A stretch of DNA of 64,000 bases from Deltaproteobacteria bacterium (GTDB lineage Bacteria > UBA10199 > JADGCS01). Below, piece after piece: positions 59,243 through 62,507 of the stretch (position 1 is its first letter; each line of letters begins with the position of its first letter). The notes under the pieces were generated by a model. It was given only the letters and a program-made list of their open reading frames with translations, had not been told where the DNA came from and did not search any database. Position numbers and translations under genes: made by a program. The DNA lies in the NCBI GenBank assembly GCA_024233595.1, contig JACKPK010000001.1, positions 60,747-124,746 of the forward strand, read 5' to 3'.

Positions 59243-59266
59243 GTTCAAAATTCTAGAATTTTAAAC
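59243..59266. promoter_or_regulatory. Near-perfect 24-bp palindrome GTTCAAAATTCT|AGAATTTTAAAC (candidate operator), overlapping the stop of peroxidase gene 2 and about 180 nt upstream of the 456-aa gene
   Basis: Inverted symmetry is visible directly in the sequence. A related palindrome is present at 57048..57073. Confidence 0.3.
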
Positions 59267-60871
59267 ACTTGTCTCAGCATAACGAAACACATCGTTATCG
59301 ACATCGGCGTTGGTATTCGTGCGAATCACATCGGCAAAGCGTTGTGACCTAACCCAAGTCAGGAGTTGAGGGTTTTGTGTAAAAAACGGATCGTTTTCGA
59401 ACCAAAAGCGATCGCCATTACGCATGTCTTCAAACTGTTTACGAATGATAGCATGAAACGTTGGGCCCACAAGTGCTCCTGGGATTTTTGTTTCGGCCAG
59501 GCCCCCCACAAAAAGATCAATGCTCTTTACGTCTGCGTAAGCTTTTAAAACTTTGATCGCTCTGGAGTCATCGCTAATTTGACCAAAACTTGCTGCATAA
59601 CTCAAACCCATAGATTGGCGAATGGTATTAAAATCGGCTAAGCCATGATCACGACCACGCATCACATTGGCTACAAAAAGATCACTCCCCGCAATGCCAC
59701 GTTCAGGTATAGCAAAGAGATTGTTCACCAAAGATTGCGATAAGCGCAAATCACCTTCTTCGGCTGGAGCACGGCTAAGTCCCTCAAAATAAGAAGCCAA
59801 GCTGTGTTGTACGGCCAGCTCTGGTTTAAAAAACGCATCCATTAAGGTGATGTAAGTATTTTTTCCATCGGCACTGCGCAACACAATGGAATCGGGCAAC
59901 AAGGTGTGCATACGGTACGCTGCTGTCGAAAACTCTGTGAACACTCCCGGATTAACCTGAGGATTATAACAGCGGTATTTGCCAATGCCATCGCTACCTA
60001 AAATGGCGGGCAAAAATTCTGTCACCGTGATGTTTTGAATGAGTGCTTCTACCAATTTACGCGCGCAATGGTAGATCTCATCACCACTAAGCTTAGGGTT
60101 GCTTGATTTGATCTGATCACACAAACGATTGTGCTCACGCACCCACAGGCTATGAATGGCAGACAACGCGATGTTCTCGTTTGAACGCACATCACCAGCC
60201 GAGAACAAAACATTTTCGCCAATGCGGTTGCCAAAAGGATCGTCGTTATTCAAACTCAAGTGGCGCGGCAGCCAAGTCTCGCCATCAGCGCTCTGCCAGG
60301 TCAACAACTTGCCCGAATCATCATTTGCTCTTAAAGCCTTAGCACGTTCTTCTGAGTCCCCATAAACAGCTGTGCCATCTATATATGCCGACAGTTCGTT
60401 GATTTGCTGACGAGGATTTGCAATTCCTGTCTGCTCATCAAAAATAGACCGCGCCAAGTACAAGGCCCTGCTCGATAATTTATTAAGTGTAAAAAAAGGA
60501 TCGTTAGCAGGAACAGGAACCGCCATGGGGTCATCGTGATGCTGGGTTGGCGTGCGCGTGATGGTGTGATCCAAAAACTGCCCAAAGTAGACAAGCAAGC
60601 TTGAAACAAGCGGGTGCGCGGGTGTGTCTTGAATTTGAAAGGCCTGAAAAGCCGCAAGACTTAGAGCACGTGCGTTGGGGCGCGCTTGTACAGGTTCAGA
60701 AAGACCATCAGCATAAGCAGGTGCGGTTAAGCGGCGTAACTGTGCTCCGGCCTGACCATAGTCGGGGTTCTCTAAATTATTACGACTGCCATCAAAGCTT
60801 CTGACGGGGTAGCCTAAAACAGCAGAGGCAGCCTGACTGGGAACGGGGTTGGGAGTGATAATCATGTTCAT
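59261..60871 (-). CDS. Animal-haem-peroxidase family protein (peroxidase-cyclooxygenase superfamily)
   Basis: 'FDGSRNNLENPDYGQAGAQLRRL' (the DGxxNN...PxxG...R N-terminal signature), distal 'FGQFLDHTI', and 'RGRDHGL'. No signal peptide. Confidence 0.8.
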   Translation of the reverse strand: MNMIITPNPVPSQAASAVLGYPVRSFDGSRNNLENPDYGQAGAQLRRLTAPAYADGLSEPVQARPNARALSLAAFQAFQIQDTPAHPLVSSLLVYFGQFLDHTITRTPTQHHDDPMAVPVPANDPFFTLNKLSSRALYLARSIFDEQTGIANPRQQINELSAYIDGTAVYGDSEERAKALRANDDSGKLLTWQSADGETWLPRHLSLNNDDPFGNRIGENVLFSAGDVRSNENIALSAIHSLWVREHNRLCDQIKSSNPKLSGDEIYHCARKLVEALIQNITVTEFLPAILGSDGIGKYRCYNPQVNPGVFTEFSTAAYRMHTLLPDSIVLRSADGKNTYITLMDAFFKPELAVQHSLASYFEGLSRAPAEEGDLRLSQSLVNNLFAIPERGIAGSDLFVANVMRGRDHGLADFNTIRQSMGLSYAASFGQISDDSRAIKVLKAYADVKSIDLFVGGLAETKIPGALVGPTFHAIIRKQFEDMRNGDRFWFENDPFFTQNPQLLTWVRSQRFADVIRTNTNADVDNDVFRYAETSV

Positions 60872-60878
60872 AAAAACC

Positions 60879-62507
60879 TCAAAATCCTGATGGCACTATA
60901 AAAGCGTTGCTTGGTAAAGATGCGCCTGTGTTGCGTTTGATCACATCAGACAGTGTTGAATCATTTACTATCGCCAGCGCATCAGGGTTATCCGCAAAAA
61001 AAGCATCGTTCTGATACCAAAAGCGATCTGCGCTACGAAGCAAGCTAAACTGATGGGCTAAAATTGCTGCAAAGCTTGGTCCAACAACAGCCCCGGAGCG
61101 AGGACGTTCTGCCAATCCCCCTACCCACAAATCAATATCCATGACATCATCATAAGCGCTTAAAACCTGACGTGCGCGTGGATCAACTGACACCTGATCA
61201 ACAGAATCATAAACAGACAAACCATAAGCTTCCCGCACAGCATTCAAACTGGCTAAGCCATGATCGCGTCCCCGTTGCACATTAAAAGCAAAAAGATCCA
61301 AGCCTGTAAAAGGACCATGTTGAAACAACTGATTTGATAAAGCATCAACCACATGCAGGTTCAAAGCGCGCGCTTCACGACCATTGGCTCCGCGAAAATA
61401 TTCGTCTAGACCATGTTTAACGGCAATGTCTGGTCTAAAAAAGGCATCTTTTAAAGGAATAAGTTTAACATATTCAGAAACACTCAATAAATAAACATCA
61501 TCATGCACCATGGGGTGCCCCAAACGAAAAGCCGCCGTGCTGAACTCAGTATAAATGCCTGGCTGATTATACCTGTCATACCCCTTATAAGGACCAAGGC
61601 CATCACCACCCAATAACAAGGGAAGATACTCAGCGTAGGTGATTTTTTGAATGAGGGCTTCTACAATTTTACGAGCACAATGGTAGATCTCGTCTCCACT
61701 AAGTTGAGGATTGCTATCGCTGATCTGGTCACACAAGCGATTGTGCTCACGCACCCACAGACTGTGCATGGCGGTTAAGGCAATGTTTTCGTTCGCACGC
61801 ACATCACCAGCAATAAAAGAAGCTTCCATGTCTCTAACGCCAGGGCCTTCTACGTTAAAGAGCCAATTTGTATTATAGGGCAACCAGTCGCCATCGTTTT
61901 GTTTAGAAACCCTAAGCTTTCCTGAATTGCCACTTGCCCTTAAATCACGCGCTCGTTCGGGCGTAGAGCCATAAACGGCAGTGCCATCCAAAAAAGAAGA
62001 TAATTTATTAGTTTGCTCCCTAGGTTTGCCCTCTTTGCCTTCATTCACGTATTGAGATCGACGCAAAGCCAAAGGTCTTAAATTGTCGTCGCGACCAAAA
62101 TGAGGGTCTCCGTTTGGAATGGGGATTTGCATGAGCTCGGTATCATCACCACTCTGCTCTGGAGTGTGCACAAGGCAATGAGCAATAAACTGCCCCCACA
62201 AAGTGAATAGATCAGAAACCTGAGCAAAGTCTCTGCTATCTTTAAAGGCTGTTTGCGCAGCCAAACTCAAAGCACGTGCGCTAGGTCGATTTGCCCCAGC
62301 AGGAGCAGAAACACCATCGCTATAAGCTGCCGCAGCACGTCTTAATAAAGGTTGTTTTGCAGCGCCCCAAGGTAAAAACGATAAATTATTGCGTTGTCCG
62401 GAAAAGGAGCGAACGGCATCGCCAAATCGAAGGTTTTCAATCGTTAAAACAGGATTAAAAGGAACACTGGCAGGCTGAATTCTCATGATGTCGTCCTTTG
62501 TGACCAA
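60879..62507 (-). CDS. Animal-haem-peroxidase family paralogue with altered distal motif
   Basis: 'FSGQRNNLSFLPWGAAKQPLLRR', distal 'WGQFIAHCL' (Asp replaced by Ala, Cys follows the His), and 'RGRDHGL' retained. It lies 8 nt upstream of its paralogue. Confidence 0.8.
   Translation of the reverse strand: MVTKDDIMRIQPASVPFNPVLTIENLRFGDAVRSFSGQRNNLSFLPWGAAKQPLLRRAAAAYSDGVSAPAGANRPSARALSLAAQTAFKDSRDFAQVSDLFTLWGQFIAHCLVHTPEQSGDDTELMQIPIPNGDPHFGRDDNLRPLALRRSQYVNEGKEGKPREQTNKLSSFLDGTAVYGSTPERARDLRASGNSGKLRVSKQNDGDWLPYNTNWLFNVEGPGVRDMEASFIAGDVRANENIALTAMHSLWVREHNRLCDQISDSNPQLSGDEIYHCARKIVEALIQKITYAEYLPLLLGGDGLGPYKGYDRYNQPGIYTEFSTAAFRLGHPMVHDDVYLLSVSEYVKLIPLKDAFFRPDIAVKHGLDEYFRGANGREARALNLHVVDALSNQLFQHGPFTGLDLFAFNVQRGRDHGLASLNAVREAYGLSVYDSVDQVSVDPRARQVLSAYDDVMDIDLWVGGLAERPRSGAVVGPSFAAILAHQFSLLRSADRFWYQNDAFFADNPDALAIVNDSTLSDVIKRNTGASLPSNAFIVPSGF

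What the first reader, a model, noticed from the sequence alone, without database searches (positions are those of the whole stretch)
59261..62507. Tandem bacterial animal-haem-peroxidase homologues, one with a rewired distal pocket
Two adjacent paralogues (536 and 542 aa) carry the peroxidase-cyclooxygenase superfamily signatures: the 'DGxxNNL..P..G...R' N-terminus, a 'GQF..H' distal motif and 'RGRDHGL'. The downstream copy keeps the canonical 'QFLDH'. The upstream copy has 'QFIAHC', losing the Asp that in mammalian peroxidases contacts or links the haem, and gaining an adjacent Cys. Neither has a signal peptide. One could be a peroxidase and the other a fatty-acid oxygenase (cyclooxygenase/alpha-dioxygenase-like) or a non-catalytic partner. 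The genes are likely co-transcribed, with only 8 nt between them.
Basis: partly seen in the sequence, partly recalled or inferred. Interest (0 to 1): 0.6.

Follow-up and report, generated by a model that had tools for sequence, protein, structure and literature searches.

The report
Tandem divergent bacterial haem peroxidase paralogues
Two adjacent genes in an uncultured deltaproteobacterial genome encode an old, fast-evolving pair of lactoperoxidase-like haem peroxidases that keep the catalytic residues but have each changed residues that normally tether the haem or bind calcium, which makes them an interesting natural variant of a known enzyme family rather than a new kind of system.

Summary
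Two minus-strand genes lie 7 nt apart. A is 60879-62507, probably starting at ATG 62486 (535 aa). B is 59261-60871 (536 aa). Both are full-length PF03098 animal-haem-peroxidase proteins (E ~1e-136) and are 49% identical.

Both are closest in sequence and predicted fold to the short bacterial and amoebal peroxidases CyanoPOX (8S6C) and DdPoxA (6ERC). They are not close to cyclooxygenase or alpha-dioxygenase.

Both keep distal Gln-His-Arg, the ester-forming Glu, and proximal His-Asn-Arg.
- A has lost the ester-forming Asp (GQFIAHC), as DdPoxA has, so I predict a single Glu-haem ester.
- The "gained" Cys in A sits at the calcium-ligand position, not facing the haem.
- B alone lacks the invariant Gly before the proximal His. 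This gives YRMHTLLPD, which locally matches the catalytic-Tyr motif of alpha-dioxygenase.

The pair are sisters (100/100 bootstrap) on long branches under purifying selection (dN/dS ~0.26). No closer relative was found among 1.84 billion representative proteins. Each single substitution recurs rarely in distant relatives.

Verdict: a lineage-specific, probably sub-functionalised peroxidase pair. It is a variant of a known kind and of modest interest.

The parts
60879..62507 (-). Gene A (upstream peroxidase). The maximal ORF is 542 aa from TTG. The likely start is ATG at 62486, giving 535 aa (= NCBI MCP5463489.1).
   Evidence: ORF list. PF03098 E 1.6e-136 over residues 32-529. 100% match to P0001. 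AGGA 8 nt upstream of ATG 62486. AF2 model pLDDT 90.3, pTM 0.92.
59261..60871 (-). Gene B (downstream peroxidase), 536 aa (= NCBI MCP5463488.1).
   Evidence: ORF list. PF03098 E 9e-136 over residues 23-526. P0002. AF2 model pLDDT 86.5, pTM 0.90.
60872..60878 (-). 7-nt spacer (GGTTTTT) between the stop codon of A and the ATG of B. A GAGG Shine-Dalgarno-like element overlaps A's TGA stop.
   Evidence: Sequence read. Suggests one transcript and possibly coupled translation (inference).
62175..62195 (-). A distal motif GQFIAHC: Gln106, Ala109 (in place of the ester Asp), distal His110, Cys111 (in place of the Ca2+ Asp). Numbering is for the 542-aa form.
   Evidence: Translation. Alignment to MPO, CyanoPOX and DdPoxA. 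117 of the 118 other proteins among the 120 best hits have DHD.
60563..60583 (-). B distal motif GQFLDHT: Gln98, ester Asp101, distal His102, Thr103 (in place of the Ca2+ Asp).
   Evidence: Translation. Alignment. Motif survey.
61788..61808 (-). A motif GDVRANE: distal Arg237 and ester-forming Glu240.
   Evidence: The -R-x-x-E- signature is described in PMC4420034.
60176..60196 (-). B motif GDVRSNE: distal Arg229 and ester-forming Glu232.
61515..61532 (-). A proximal motif AFRLGH, with proximal His331. It is followed by Pro332, a residue not seen at that position in 118 relatives.
59906..59920 (-). B proximal motif AYRMH, with proximal His322. The invariant Gly is deleted, so Tyr319 lies at -3 from the His. 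The wider segment YRMHTLLPD matches alpha-dioxygenase YRMHSLLPD.
61980..62000 (-). A Ca2+-loop SSFLDGT (Ser170, Phe172, Asp174, Thr176). These are conservative replacements of the canonical T-x-(F/W)-x-D-x-S ligands.
   Evidence: CyanoPOX ligands are listed in PMC11776367.
60371..60391 (-). B Ca2+-loop SAYIDGT (Ser161, Tyr163, Asp165, Thr167).
61257..61283 (-). A motif NVQRGRDHG: Asn409 (H-bond partner of the proximal His) and Arg412.
59642..59668 (-). B motif NVMRGRDHG: Asn402 and Arg405. A Gln that is 99% conserved is Met here.
59116..59133 (-). Terminator-like hairpin between gene B and the next gene (DUF2846 protein). It is the probable 3' end of the two-gene unit.
   Evidence: Consensus scan only.
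62791..62827 (-). Strong terminator hairpin (17 bp stem plus T-run) just after the 5S rRNA. It separates the rRNA operon from gene A.

Best explanation
This is a two-gene operon encoding two single-domain, leaderless haem peroxidases of the short bacterial 'lactoperoxidase-like' type, the branch that holds CyanoPOX, LspPOX and DdPoxA. The two arose from an old lineage-specific tandem duplication and have since diverged quickly under purifying selection.

Mechanism, inferred by homology:
- Each protein binds haem b through a proximal His (A His331, B His322) that is H-bonded to Asn (A Asn409, B Asn402).
- H2O2 is cleaved by the distal His-Arg pair (A His110/Arg237, B His102/Arg229) to give compound I.
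- Compound I then oxidises iodide, thiocyanate or aromatic donors. The conserved Gln (A Gln106, B Gln98) would help bind the halide.
- The two copies should differ in how the haem is tethered. B keeps both ester-forming residues (Asp101 and Glu232), as LspPOX and LPO do. A keeps only Glu240, because the Asp is now Ala109, as in DdPoxA.
- By analogy with DdPoxA (E0' -0.276 V, against -0.158 V for LspPOX), A should have the lower reduction potential and be limited to I-/SCN- and one-electron donors. B could in principle reach bromide.
- Both copies have replaced the Asp that follows the distal His and ligates the structural Ca2+ (Cys111 in A, Thr103 in B). The other four ligand positions are conservatively kept. 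The Ca2+ site is therefore probably weakened or remodelled in both, more so in A.

The pair is best read as sub-functionalised paralogues with different redox and substrate range.

Shown here: family membership, residue mapping, sister relationship, divergence and the rarity of the motifs. Inferred: haem linkage, redox ranking, substrates and cellular location.
For: - Family and fold. PF03098 matches full length at E ~1e-136 for both. The best solved relatives are CyanoPOX 8s6c (E 8e-105 and 3e-98), then DdPoxA, MPO and LPO. Both AF2 models are confident, and their Foldseek best hits are 8s6c (TM 0.88 and 0.87) and 6erc.
- Catalytic residues. Residue-by-residue alignments show distal Gln/His/Arg, ester Glu and proximal His/Asn/Arg present in both.
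- Meaning of the motifs. In the GQxxDHD signature the first Asp forms the haem ester and the second binds Ca2+; the -R-x-x-E- signature supplies the distal Arg and the ester Glu (PMC4420034).
- Precedent for losing the ester Asp. DdPoxA has Ile in place of that Asp and Asn in place of the Ca Asp. It still binds Ca2+, forms one Glu ester, oxidises I-/SCN- quickly, oxidises Br- poorly and does not oxidise Cl- (PMC5787809).
- Position of the Cys. The CyanoPOX Ca2+ ligands and the 11 A distance from the distal His are given in PMC11776367.
- Evolution of the pair. A and B are sisters in 100 of 100 NJ bootstraps, on branches of 0.38 and 0.44. Their mean distance to the family is 0.98 and 1.04, against 0.68 typical. 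NG86 gives dN 0.52 and dS ~2.0. There is no sign of recent gene conversion: third-position identity at identical residues is 0.57.
- Operon. The spacer is 7 nt with a GAGG.
Against: - No biochemical data exist, and haem binding is untested.
- The Ca2+ site is described as essential for mammalian LPO activity (PMC11776367), and both copies have lost its Asp.
- B has a one-residue deletion immediately before the proximal His, at a Gly invariant in 118 of 118 relatives. B also has changes at 12 other columns that are at least 90% conserved; A has 7 such private changes. Either copy could therefore be catalytically impaired.
- Neither has a recognisable export signal, whereas many relatives are secreted. 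A cytoplasmic hypohalite-producing enzyme would be odd.
- No H2O2 source or obvious functional partner lies nearby.
Confidence: 0.6

Rival explanations
1. One copy is a catalytically dead or regulatory partner (a pseudo-peroxidase) of the other. It might, for example, form a heterodimer in which only one subunit turns over.
For: - Both proteins lie on unusually long branches and deviate at many columns that are at least 90% conserved: 16 shared, 7 private to A and 12 private to B.
- Both lack the Ca2+ Asp.
- B lacks the invariant Gly before the proximal His and has Met in place of the 99%-conserved Gln in N-x-Q-R.
- Close spacing suggests stoichiometric co-expression.
- Database proteins with two fused peroxidase domains exist (P0121-P0124), so two domains can act in one polypeptide.
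Against: - Every residue known to be catalytic is kept in both copies: distal Gln/His/Arg, ester Glu and proximal His/Asn/Arg.
- dN/dS is about 0.26, which indicates constraint on both.
- The characterised close relatives CyanoPOX and DdPoxA are monomers.
- DUOX, the known dead domain of this superfamily, has lost the proximal His (PMC4420034). Neither copy here has.
Confidence: 0.17
2. Gene B is a tyrosyl-radical fatty-acid oxygenase (alpha-dioxygenase or COX-like chemistry), or a hybrid of peroxidase and oxygenase, while A is the ordinary peroxidase.
For: - Deletion of the invariant Gly puts Tyr319 at -3 from proximal His322. That is the spacing of the catalytic Tyr in alpha-DOX (Tyr379...His382).
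- The segment YRMHTLLPD matches Arabidopsis alpha-DOX YRMHSLLPD at 8 of 9 positions without gaps. The rice Y379F mutant entry 4kvl confirms that this is the catalytic Tyr (PMC8720084).
- Met at that column is seen in 0 of 118 relatives, Pro in 8% and Asp in 17%.
- B scores higher than A against alpha-DOX (83 against 57 bits).
Against: - B's score against alpha-DOX is no higher than that of canonical relatives (88-89 bits).
- B is sister to A inside the peroxidase branch.
- The predicted fold matches CyanoPOX (TM 0.87) much better than alpha-DOX (0.73-0.77) or COX (0.62-0.66), and A gives the same values.
- B keeps the distal Arg and both ester-forming residues.
- The C-terminal segment of B that should correspond to the alpha-DOX region carrying Phe552 and Arg559 (correspondence estimated, not aligned) matches only peroxidases.
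- A Gly-less AAYRLH also occurs in an unrelated distant relative (P0235), so the deletion recurs.
Confidence: 0.07
3. The pair is a decaying duplicate with no maintained function in one or both copies, that is, neutral drift after duplication.
For: Branches are long, normally invariant residues have been lost, and no close orthologues were found anywhere.
Against: - Both reading frames are intact over about 535 codons, despite saturated synonymous divergence (dS ~2) with dN/dS ~0.26.
- Catalytic residues are kept in both.
- A central block is 83-87% identical between the copies.
- Both AF2 models are confident.
Confidence: 0.05

Closest known systems
CyanoPOX (Cyanobacterium sp. TDX16 peroxidase, PDB 8S6C) and LspPOX (Lyngbya sp. 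PCC 8106): short bacterial lactoperoxidase-like enzymes
   Same: - These are the best sequence and fold matches (E 8e-105 and 3e-98; TM 0.88 and 0.87; 38-40% identity).
- They have the same single-domain size of about 530 aa.
- They share the distal Gln/His/Arg, the ester Glu and the proximal His/Asn/Arg.
   Different: - CyanoPOX and LspPOX have the canonical GQFLDHD motif with both Asp residues. A has AHC and B has DHT.
- B lacks the Gly before the proximal His.
- A has Pro where CyanoPOX Thr295 binds a second Ca2+.
- Canonical relatives score about 620 bits against CyanoPOX, while A and B score only 355 and 333.
- CyanoPOX carries a C-terminal PEP-CTERM sorting motif. A and B do not.
DdPoxA (Dictyostelium discoideum peroxidase A, PDB 6ERC)
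   Same: - It is the natural precedent for loss of the ester-forming Asp (Ile100) and of the Ca2+ Asp (Asn102), with a full catalytic triad and a single Glu-haem ester (PMC5787809).
- A has the same pattern: Ala109, Cys111 and Glu240 kept.
   Different: - DdPoxA is eukaryotic, secreted, glycosylated and disulfide-bonded.
- It is about 29-30% identical to A and B (Foldseek structural alignment).
- Its replacement Ca ligand is Asn, a good oxygen ligand. A has Cys, a poor Ca2+ ligand.
Mammalian MPO, LPO and EPO (family 1 chordate peroxidases)
   Same: They share the fold and catalytic residues. The alignment maps MPO Gln91/His95/Arg239/Glu242/His336/Asn421 onto both proteins.
   Different: - There is no Met243-type sulfonium link: Asn follows the Glu in both A and B.
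- A lacks the Asp94 equivalent.
- Both lack the Asp96 equivalent.
- A and B have no propeptide, no disulfides and no signal peptide.
Plant and cyanobacterial alpha-dioxygenases and cyclooxygenases (family 4)
   Same: They belong to the same superfamily fold. B shares the local proximal motif Y-R-M-H-x-L-L-P-D, with Tyr at -3 from the haem His.
   Different: - Global similarity is weak (57-83 bits; TM 0.73-0.78).
- The ester residues Asp and Glu are retained in B and the Glu in A, unlike family 4. The distal Arg is also retained in both.
- The C-terminal segment expected to correspond to the alpha-DOX Phe552/Arg559 region is not recognisably similar.
Tandem or fused peroxidase duplications in other bacteria (L021 Planctomycetaceae, L022 Paraneptunicella, L030 Alteromonas sp. 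a30; two-domain proteins P0121-P0124)
   Same: Adjacent same-strand paralogous peroxidase genes occur in 3 of 80 GTDB loci. Two domains fused in one protein also occur.
   Different: Those tandem pairs keep DHD in both copies. The window pair is the only one seen in which both copies carry altered distal motifs.

Membership tests
Peroxidase-cyclooxygenase superfamily (Pfam PF03098, An_peroxidase) | Full-length match to the family profile above the curated cut-off | tested here: met
   A scores 456.5 bits and B 454 bits against a cut-off of 25. The matches cover profile positions 1-521 and 1-527 of 530.
Peroxidase-cyclooxygenase superfamily (halogenating branch, families 1-3, 5, 6) | Distal catalytic His in -G-Q-x-x-D-H-D-, with the conserved Gln | tested here: met
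   A has Gln106/His110 and B has Gln98/His102, aligned to MPO Gln91/His95 and the CyanoPOX distal His.
Peroxidase-cyclooxygenase superfamily (halogenating branch) | First Asp of the D-H-D motif (haem ester bond) | tested here: not met
   A has Ala109, so the feature is not met in A. B has Asp101, so it is met in B. Among the 118 other proteins in the 120 best hits, 117 have DHD and none lacks the first Asp. Loss recurs rarely in more distant relatives: AHD x3, SHD, THD, FHD, VHD.
Peroxidase-cyclooxygenase superfamily (halogenating branch) | Second Asp of the D-H-D motif (distal Ca2+ ligand) | tested here: not met
   A has Cys111 and B has Thr103. The other ligand positions are conservatively kept: S/F/D/T in A and S/Y/D/T in B. 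PMC4420034 notes that the Ca motif is not fully conserved in ancestral members.
Peroxidase-cyclooxygenase superfamily (halogenating branch) | Distal Arg and ester-forming Glu in -R-x-x-E- | tested here: met
   A has GDVRANE (Arg237, Glu240) and B has GDVRSNE (Arg229, Glu232).
Peroxidase-cyclooxygenase superfamily (halogenating branch) | Proximal His H-bonded to Asn (plus Arg) in N-x-Q-R-G-R-D-H-G | tested here: met
   A has His331/Asn409/Arg412 and B has His322/Asn402/Arg405. Caveat: B lacks the invariant Gly before the His and has Met in place of the Gln.
Peroxidase-cyclooxygenase superfamily | Haem binding and H2O2-dependent peroxidase or halogenation activity | not testable with these tools
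   This needs recombinant protein, UV-vis and mass spectrometry, and activity assays.
Family 6-type short bacterial/amoebal peroxidases (CyanoPOX, LspPOX, DdPoxA) | Closest characterised relatives in sequence and fold; single peroxidase domain of about 500-550 aa | tested here: met
   8s6c and 6erc rank first and second for both proteins by phmmer and by Foldseek.
Family 6-type short bacterial/amoebal peroxidases | Placement inside family 6 in a superfamily-wide phylogeny with reference sequences of all seven families | not tested
   Only the 120 nearest relatives were used for the tree. No reference set for families 1-7 was available.
Family 4 fatty-acid oxygenases (COX, alpha-DOX, LDS) | Catalytic Tyr three residues before the proximal His (Y-x-x-H) | tested here: inconclusive
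   B has Y319-R-M-H322, and it aligns without gaps to alpha-DOX YRMH. A has F-R-L-G-H instead. Sequence spacing alone does not show that the Tyr is positioned at a substrate channel.
Family 4 fatty-acid oxygenases (COX, alpha-DOX, LDS) | Greater overall similarity to family 4 than to halogenating peroxidases; no covalent-link residues | tested here: not met
   Scores are 57-83 bits against alpha-DOX, compared with 333-355 bits against CyanoPOX. TM-scores are 0.73-0.78, compared with 0.87-0.88. The ester Glu (and the distal Arg) is kept in both copies and the ester Asp in B.
Family 4 fatty-acid oxygenases (alpha-DOX) | Carboxylate-binding His311/Arg559 and Phe375/Phe552 stacking on the Tyr | tested here: inconclusive
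   No residue-level alignment to alpha-DOX could be obtained for these positions. The C-terminal segment of B that I estimate corresponds to the Phe552/Arg559 region matches only peroxidases and gives no alpha-DOX hit at E<=10. By my reading of the alignment, the Phe is at -5 from the Tyr in B rather than -4.

The most novel reading that the evidence does not exclude
Gene B may be a natural hybrid. It would combine a halogenating-peroxidase distal pocket, with covalent haem links, and a cyclooxygenase/alpha-dioxygenase-type Tyr(-3)-His proximal motif (YRMHTLLPD) created by a single-codon deletion. Compound I could then oxidise Tyr319 to a radical that oxygenates an organic substrate. The co-transcribed single-ester paralogue A would act as its peroxide-handling partner. 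If so, B would be a living intermediate of the peroxidase-to-oxygenase transition in this superfamily.
Probability: 0.06. Interest if true: 0.75.

Novelty: new variant of a known kind. Interest (0 to 1): 0.3.

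Why it matters
Covalent haem-protein ester bonds and the distal Ca2+ site are the features that set the redox potential and halide range of the animal-type peroxidases. Until now they have been probed mainly with mutants and with one natural single-ester enzyme, DdPoxA.

A co-transcribed bacterial pair offers a ready-made natural comparison:
- One copy should form two esters and the other only one.
- Both lack the Ca2+ Asp.
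- One has an altered proximal His segment.

Relatives such as CyanoPOX express well in E. coli (PMC11776367). The pair could therefore be used to study how these features tune potential, stability and substrate scope. It may also yield Ca-independent or cytoplasm-compatible peroxidases for biocatalysis.

The biology is unknown: why a deltaproteobacterium keeps two leaderless peroxidases next to an rRNA operon. It is not a new kind of system.

Tried and rejected
1. Closer relatives. I looked for orthologues that would show whether AHC/DHT is a conserved lineage trait.
   - The word-indexed search of 5.8 billion proteins found nothing above 47% identity apart from the paralogue.
   - The exhaustive HMMER search of 1.84 billion representatives found nothing closer to A than B. 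The few higher-scoring hits are two-domain proteins at 38-41% identity.
   - Both proteins are singletons at 90% identity.
   - The exact-sequence contig look-up found no record.
   - The source genome was not among the 80 loci returned from the GTDB representative scan; none exceeded 45% identity.
2. Recent gene conversion between the copies. Rejected: third-position identity at identical residues is 0.57 overall and at most 0.73 in the most conserved central block.
3. Link between the missing signal peptide and loss of the Ca2+ Asp (a cytoplasmic adaptation). Not supported as a rule: several leaderless relatives (P0003, P0010, P0098) keep DHD.
4. Functional partners in the neighbourhood, such as an H2O2-producing oxidase, a halogenation substrate pathway or a secretion system. 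None found.
   - Upstream is the 23S-5S rRNA operon.
   - Downstream are a DUF2846 protein, a small membrane protein and a Tc/Rhs-like toxin cluster.
   - The rest of the window is housekeeping genes.
5. NCBIfam gave no named equivalog for either protein.
6. Global oxygenase affinity of B. Rejected by score comparison with canonical relatives, by Foldseek TM-scores, and by the C-terminal segment expected to correspond to the alpha-DOX Phe552/Arg559 region, which matched only peroxidases.
7. Cys111 as a possible haem ligand or link. Rejected by homology: it is the Ca-ligand position on the far side of the distal helix, and that Ca2+ lies 11 A from the distal His in CyanoPOX.

Full report
**1. 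What is in the sequence**

Two ORFs lie head to tail on the minus strand. A runs from 60879 to 62507 (542 aa from the first possible start, a TTG). B runs from 59261 to 60871 (536 aa from an ATG). A's TGA stop and B's ATG are separated by 7 nt (GGTTTTT), and a GAGG overlaps the stop.

The NCBI gene call for A begins at the ATG at 62486, which has an AGGA 8 nt upstream. This gives 535 aa. Residue numbers below use the 542-aa frame; subtract 7 for the NCBI form.

Both proteins match Pfam PF03098 (animal haem peroxidase) over the whole profile, at E 1.6e-136 and 9e-136. They are 49% identical to each other. NCBIfam has no specific model for them.

They are already in GenBank as MCP5463489.1 and MCP5463488.1, 'MAG: peroxidase family protein [Deltaproteobacteria bacterium]', on a 374,518-bp contig.

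**2. Residue mapping**

HMMER alignments were made to CyanoPOX (8S6C), DdPoxA (6ERC) and human MPO. Motif positions were checked by translation.

| Feature | A | B |
|---|---|---|
| Distal motif | GQFIAHC | GQFLDHT |
| Halide-binding Gln | Gln106 | Gln98 |
| Ester Asp position | Ala109 | Asp101 |
| Distal His | His110 | His102 |
| Ca2+ Asp position | Cys111 | Thr103 |
| Distal Arg / ester Glu | Arg237 / Glu240 | Arg229 / Glu232 |
| Proximal His | His331 (AFRLGH) | His322 (AYRM-H) |
| Asn / Arg partners | Asn409 / Arg412 | Asn402 / Arg405 |
| Remaining Ca loop | S170-F172-D174-T176 | S161-Y163-D165-T167 |

The literature defines -G-Q-x-x-D-H-D- as ester Asp, distal His, Ca2+ Asp. It defines -R-x-x-E- as distal Arg and ester Glu (PMC4420034).

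In CyanoPOX the Ca2+ is ligated by Asp82 (side chain and carbonyl), Thr140, Trp142 O, Asp144 and Ser146, and it lies 11 A from the distal His (PMC11776367). It is not a haem-facing residue.

**3. How unusual the changes are**

- Among the 118 other proteins in the 120 best database hits, 117 have DHD and one has DHG.
- Over columns that are at least 90% conserved in those 118 relatives, A and B share 16 deviations. These include the Ca Asp and conservative T->S and S->T swaps in the Ca loop. A has 7 private deviations and B has 12.
- B's private changes include loss of the Gly before the proximal His (118 of 118 conserved) and Gln->Met in N-x-Q-R.
- A has Pro after the proximal His, where all 118 relatives have Ser or Thr.
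- In the broader sample of 146 representatives at 50% clustering, the individual changes recur rarely and independently. Examples are AHD (3), SHD/THD/FHD/VHD, DHN (2), DHT (1), SHT (1) and one Gly-less AAYRLH. All are in proteins at most 41% identical to A or B.
- Two GTDB genomes have SHD or THD, and one has DHG.
- Each substitution therefore has precedent. Their combination in a tandem pair was not seen elsewhere.

**4. Evolution of the pair**

- A and B are sister sequences in 100 of 100 neighbour-joining bootstraps, with branch lengths of 0.38 and 0.44.
- Their mean distance to the family is 0.98 and 1.04, against 0.68 typical for other members.
- A is closer than B to 94 of 118 outgroups, so B is slightly the faster-evolving copy.
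- NG86 gives dN 0.52 and dS about 2.0 (saturated), so dN/dS is about 0.26.
- There is no signal of recent gene conversion. A central block (A residues 239-298, covering the helices that follow the distal Arg/Glu motif) is 83-87% identical at the protein level.
- No closer relative exists among 5.8 billion clustered proteins or 1.84 billion representatives read exhaustively by HMMER. B is A's nearest single-domain relative.
- This is an old, lineage-specific duplication kept under purifying selection in a poorly sampled lineage.

**5. Which branch of the superfamily**

| Query | CyanoPOX (bits) | DdPoxA (bits) | MPO (bits) | alpha-DOX (bits) | COX-2 (bits) |
|---|---|---|---|---|---|
| A | 355 | 218 | 211 | 57 | 46 |
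| B | 333 | 195 | 177 | 83 | 53 |
| Canonical P0003 / P0010 | 625 / 617 | - | - | 88 / 89 | 34-43 |

The AlphaFold2 models are confident: A has pLDDT 90.3 and pTM 0.92, and B has pLDDT 86.5 and pTM 0.90. Foldseek places both nearest to 8S6C (TM 0.88 and 0.87) and 6ERC (0.84 and 0.86). MPO and LPO follow at about 0.85, alpha-DOX at 0.73-0.78 and COX at 0.61-0.66. A and B do not differ in this ranking.

Both are peroxidase-type proteins of the short bacterial/amoebal branch. Neither is a family-4 oxygenase overall.

**6. Likely mechanism**

Both copies keep the full machinery for compound I formation, so the default reading is two active haem peroxidases.

DdPoxA is the natural precedent for loss of the ester Asp (PMC5787809):
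- It has Ile at the ester-Asp position and forms one ester through Glu.
- Its E0' is -0.276 V, compared with -0.158 V for LspPOX.
- It oxidises I- and SCN- quickly, oxidises Br- poorly and does not oxidise Cl-.
- It still binds Ca2+, using Asn in place of the Asp.

By analogy, A (Ala109, Glu240) should form a single ester and be the weaker oxidant. B (Asp101, Glu232) should be able to form both esters.

The Ca site is probably retained in B, because Thr can supply a hydroxyl and a carbonyl. It is weakened in A, where Cys leaves only the carbonyl. All of this is inference from homology, and nothing here measures haem binding or activity.

The pair is most simply explained as sub-functionalised paralogues co-expressed from one transcript. 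A strong terminator follows the 5S rRNA upstream of A. A terminator-like hairpin follows B. None lies between the two genes.

**7. The oxygenase idea**

The data do not support that for A.

Unexpectedly, the one-residue deletion in B produces AAYRMHTLLPD. This aligns without gaps to Arabidopsis alpha-DOX VYRMHSLLPD and rice VYRMHSLIPS. That Tyr is the catalytic Tyr379, three residues before proximal His382 (PMC8720084). The rice Y379F entry 4kvl shows Phe at this position.

At these columns the relatives have Met in 0 of 118, no Gly deletion in any of 118, Pro in 8% and Asp in 17%.

The evidence against a real oxygenase function is listed under section 5 and in these points:
- B retains the distal Arg, Asp and Glu.
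- The C-terminal segment of B that I estimate corresponds to the alpha-DOX region carrying Phe552 and Arg559 matches only peroxidases.
- A Gly-less variant exists in an unrelated relative.

I keep this as a low-probability (about 6%) but testable reading.

**8. Context**

- The pair sits directly downstream of a 23S-5S rRNA operon (23S fragment 63112-64000, 5S 62835-62949).
- It is upstream of a signal-peptide-bearing DUF2846 protein, a small membrane protein, and a large cluster of SpvB/RHS/FG-GAP/beta-helix/TSP3 proteins at 37.8-56.5 kb.
- The rest of the window is housekeeping: LysRS, LolCDE-like ABC transporter, BamA, OmpH, GlmS, UvrD, RlmN, PurA, SerA and PyrF.
- No H2O2 source, halogenation substrate pathway or dedicated secretion system is adjacent.
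- Neither protein has an N-terminal hydrophobic leader or the C-terminal PEP-CTERM seen in CyanoPOX. Several canonical relatives are equally leaderless, so location remains open.
- Tandem peroxidase pairs occur in 3 of 80 GTDB loci, all with DHD in both copies. Fused two-domain proteins also exist.

**9. Verdict**

The feature is a divergent, lineage-specific tandem pair of lactoperoxidase-like haem peroxidases with rare, functionally meaningful substitutions:
- A has a predicted single ester.
- Both lack the Ca2+ Asp.
- B has an altered proximal His segment.

It is a new variant of a known kind and is already annotated generically as 'peroxidase family protein'. Interest is modest (0.3). It is a useful natural system for studying haem linkage and redox tuning, with a small chance of something more unusual in B.

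Noticed in passing
window 59906-59920 (gene B, residues 318-322): B lacks the Gly before the proximal His that is invariant in 118 of 118 relatives. This gives YRMHTLLPD, which matches the catalytic-Tyr/proximal-His segment of plant alpha-dioxygenases (YRMHSLLPD) at 8 of 9 positions without gaps.
   Followed up: yes
window 62616-62659 and 62720-62763: A perfect 44-nt direct repeat occurs twice, 104 nt apart, in the spacer between the 5S rRNA and gene A. Each copy holds a GC-rich hairpin (ACCGCCTCAAGTGGCGGT) followed by a T-run on the + strand, so it looks like a terminator facing the antisense direction. It occurs nowhere else in the window.
   Followed up: partly
window 62835-64000: A 5S rRNA (62835-62949) and the 3' part of a 23S rRNA (63112-64000) lie on the minus strand, followed by a 17-bp-stem terminator (62791-62827). 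The peroxidase pair therefore begins about 300 nt after an rRNA operon.
   Followed up: partly
window 37831-56457: This is a large minus-strand cluster of probable surface or toxin proteins. It includes a 2393-aa SpvB + FG-GAP + RHS-repeat protein (49276-56457) with a signal peptide and a long Gly/Ala-rich hydrophobic C-terminal region. It also includes a 1497-aa protein with no Pfam match (40679-45172), beta-helix/NosD and TSP3-repeat proteins, and an FG-GAP protein. GC content dips to 0.36-0.39 at 40-44 kb and 48-50 kb.
   Followed up: partly
window 61515-61532 (gene A, Pro332): A has Pro immediately after the proximal His, where all 118 relatives have Ser or Thr. In CyanoPOX the Thr at this position (Thr295) ligates a second, proximal Ca2+.
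   Followed up: no
genes A and B, 'IYHCARK' (A Cys277, B Cys269): Both paralogues share a Cys where all eight relatives in the small alignment have Gln. It lies in the most conserved block between the two copies (83-87% identity over A residues 239-298). A second shared Cys (NRLCDQI) is also common in relatives.
   Followed up: partly
proteins P0121-P0124, P0126, P0127, P0150 and others; loci L021, L022, L030: Many database relatives carry two peroxidase domains fused in one polypeptide. Some have a non-canonical distal motif in one or both domains (for example FHD+DHD, NHE+NHD, VHD+VHD). Three GTDB genomes have adjacent tandem peroxidase genes, both with DHD.
   Followed up: partly
proteins P0013, P0016, P0029, P0050, P0069, P0099, P0107 and others: Planctomycete-type relatives lack a classical signal peptide but share an N-terminal 'LEPLEERxLL'-like motif ahead of the peroxidase domain. 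Many also carry SdrD-B-like or carboxypeptidase-regulatory-like domains (position in the protein not checked). This suggests a different export route in those lineages.
   Followed up: no
window 57674-59044: The gene just downstream of B encodes a 456-aa signal-peptide protein with an N-terminal DUF2846 domain. It is followed by a 168-aa multi-pass membrane protein and a 100-aa acidic lipoprotein-like protein. None has a known link to peroxidases.
   Followed up: no
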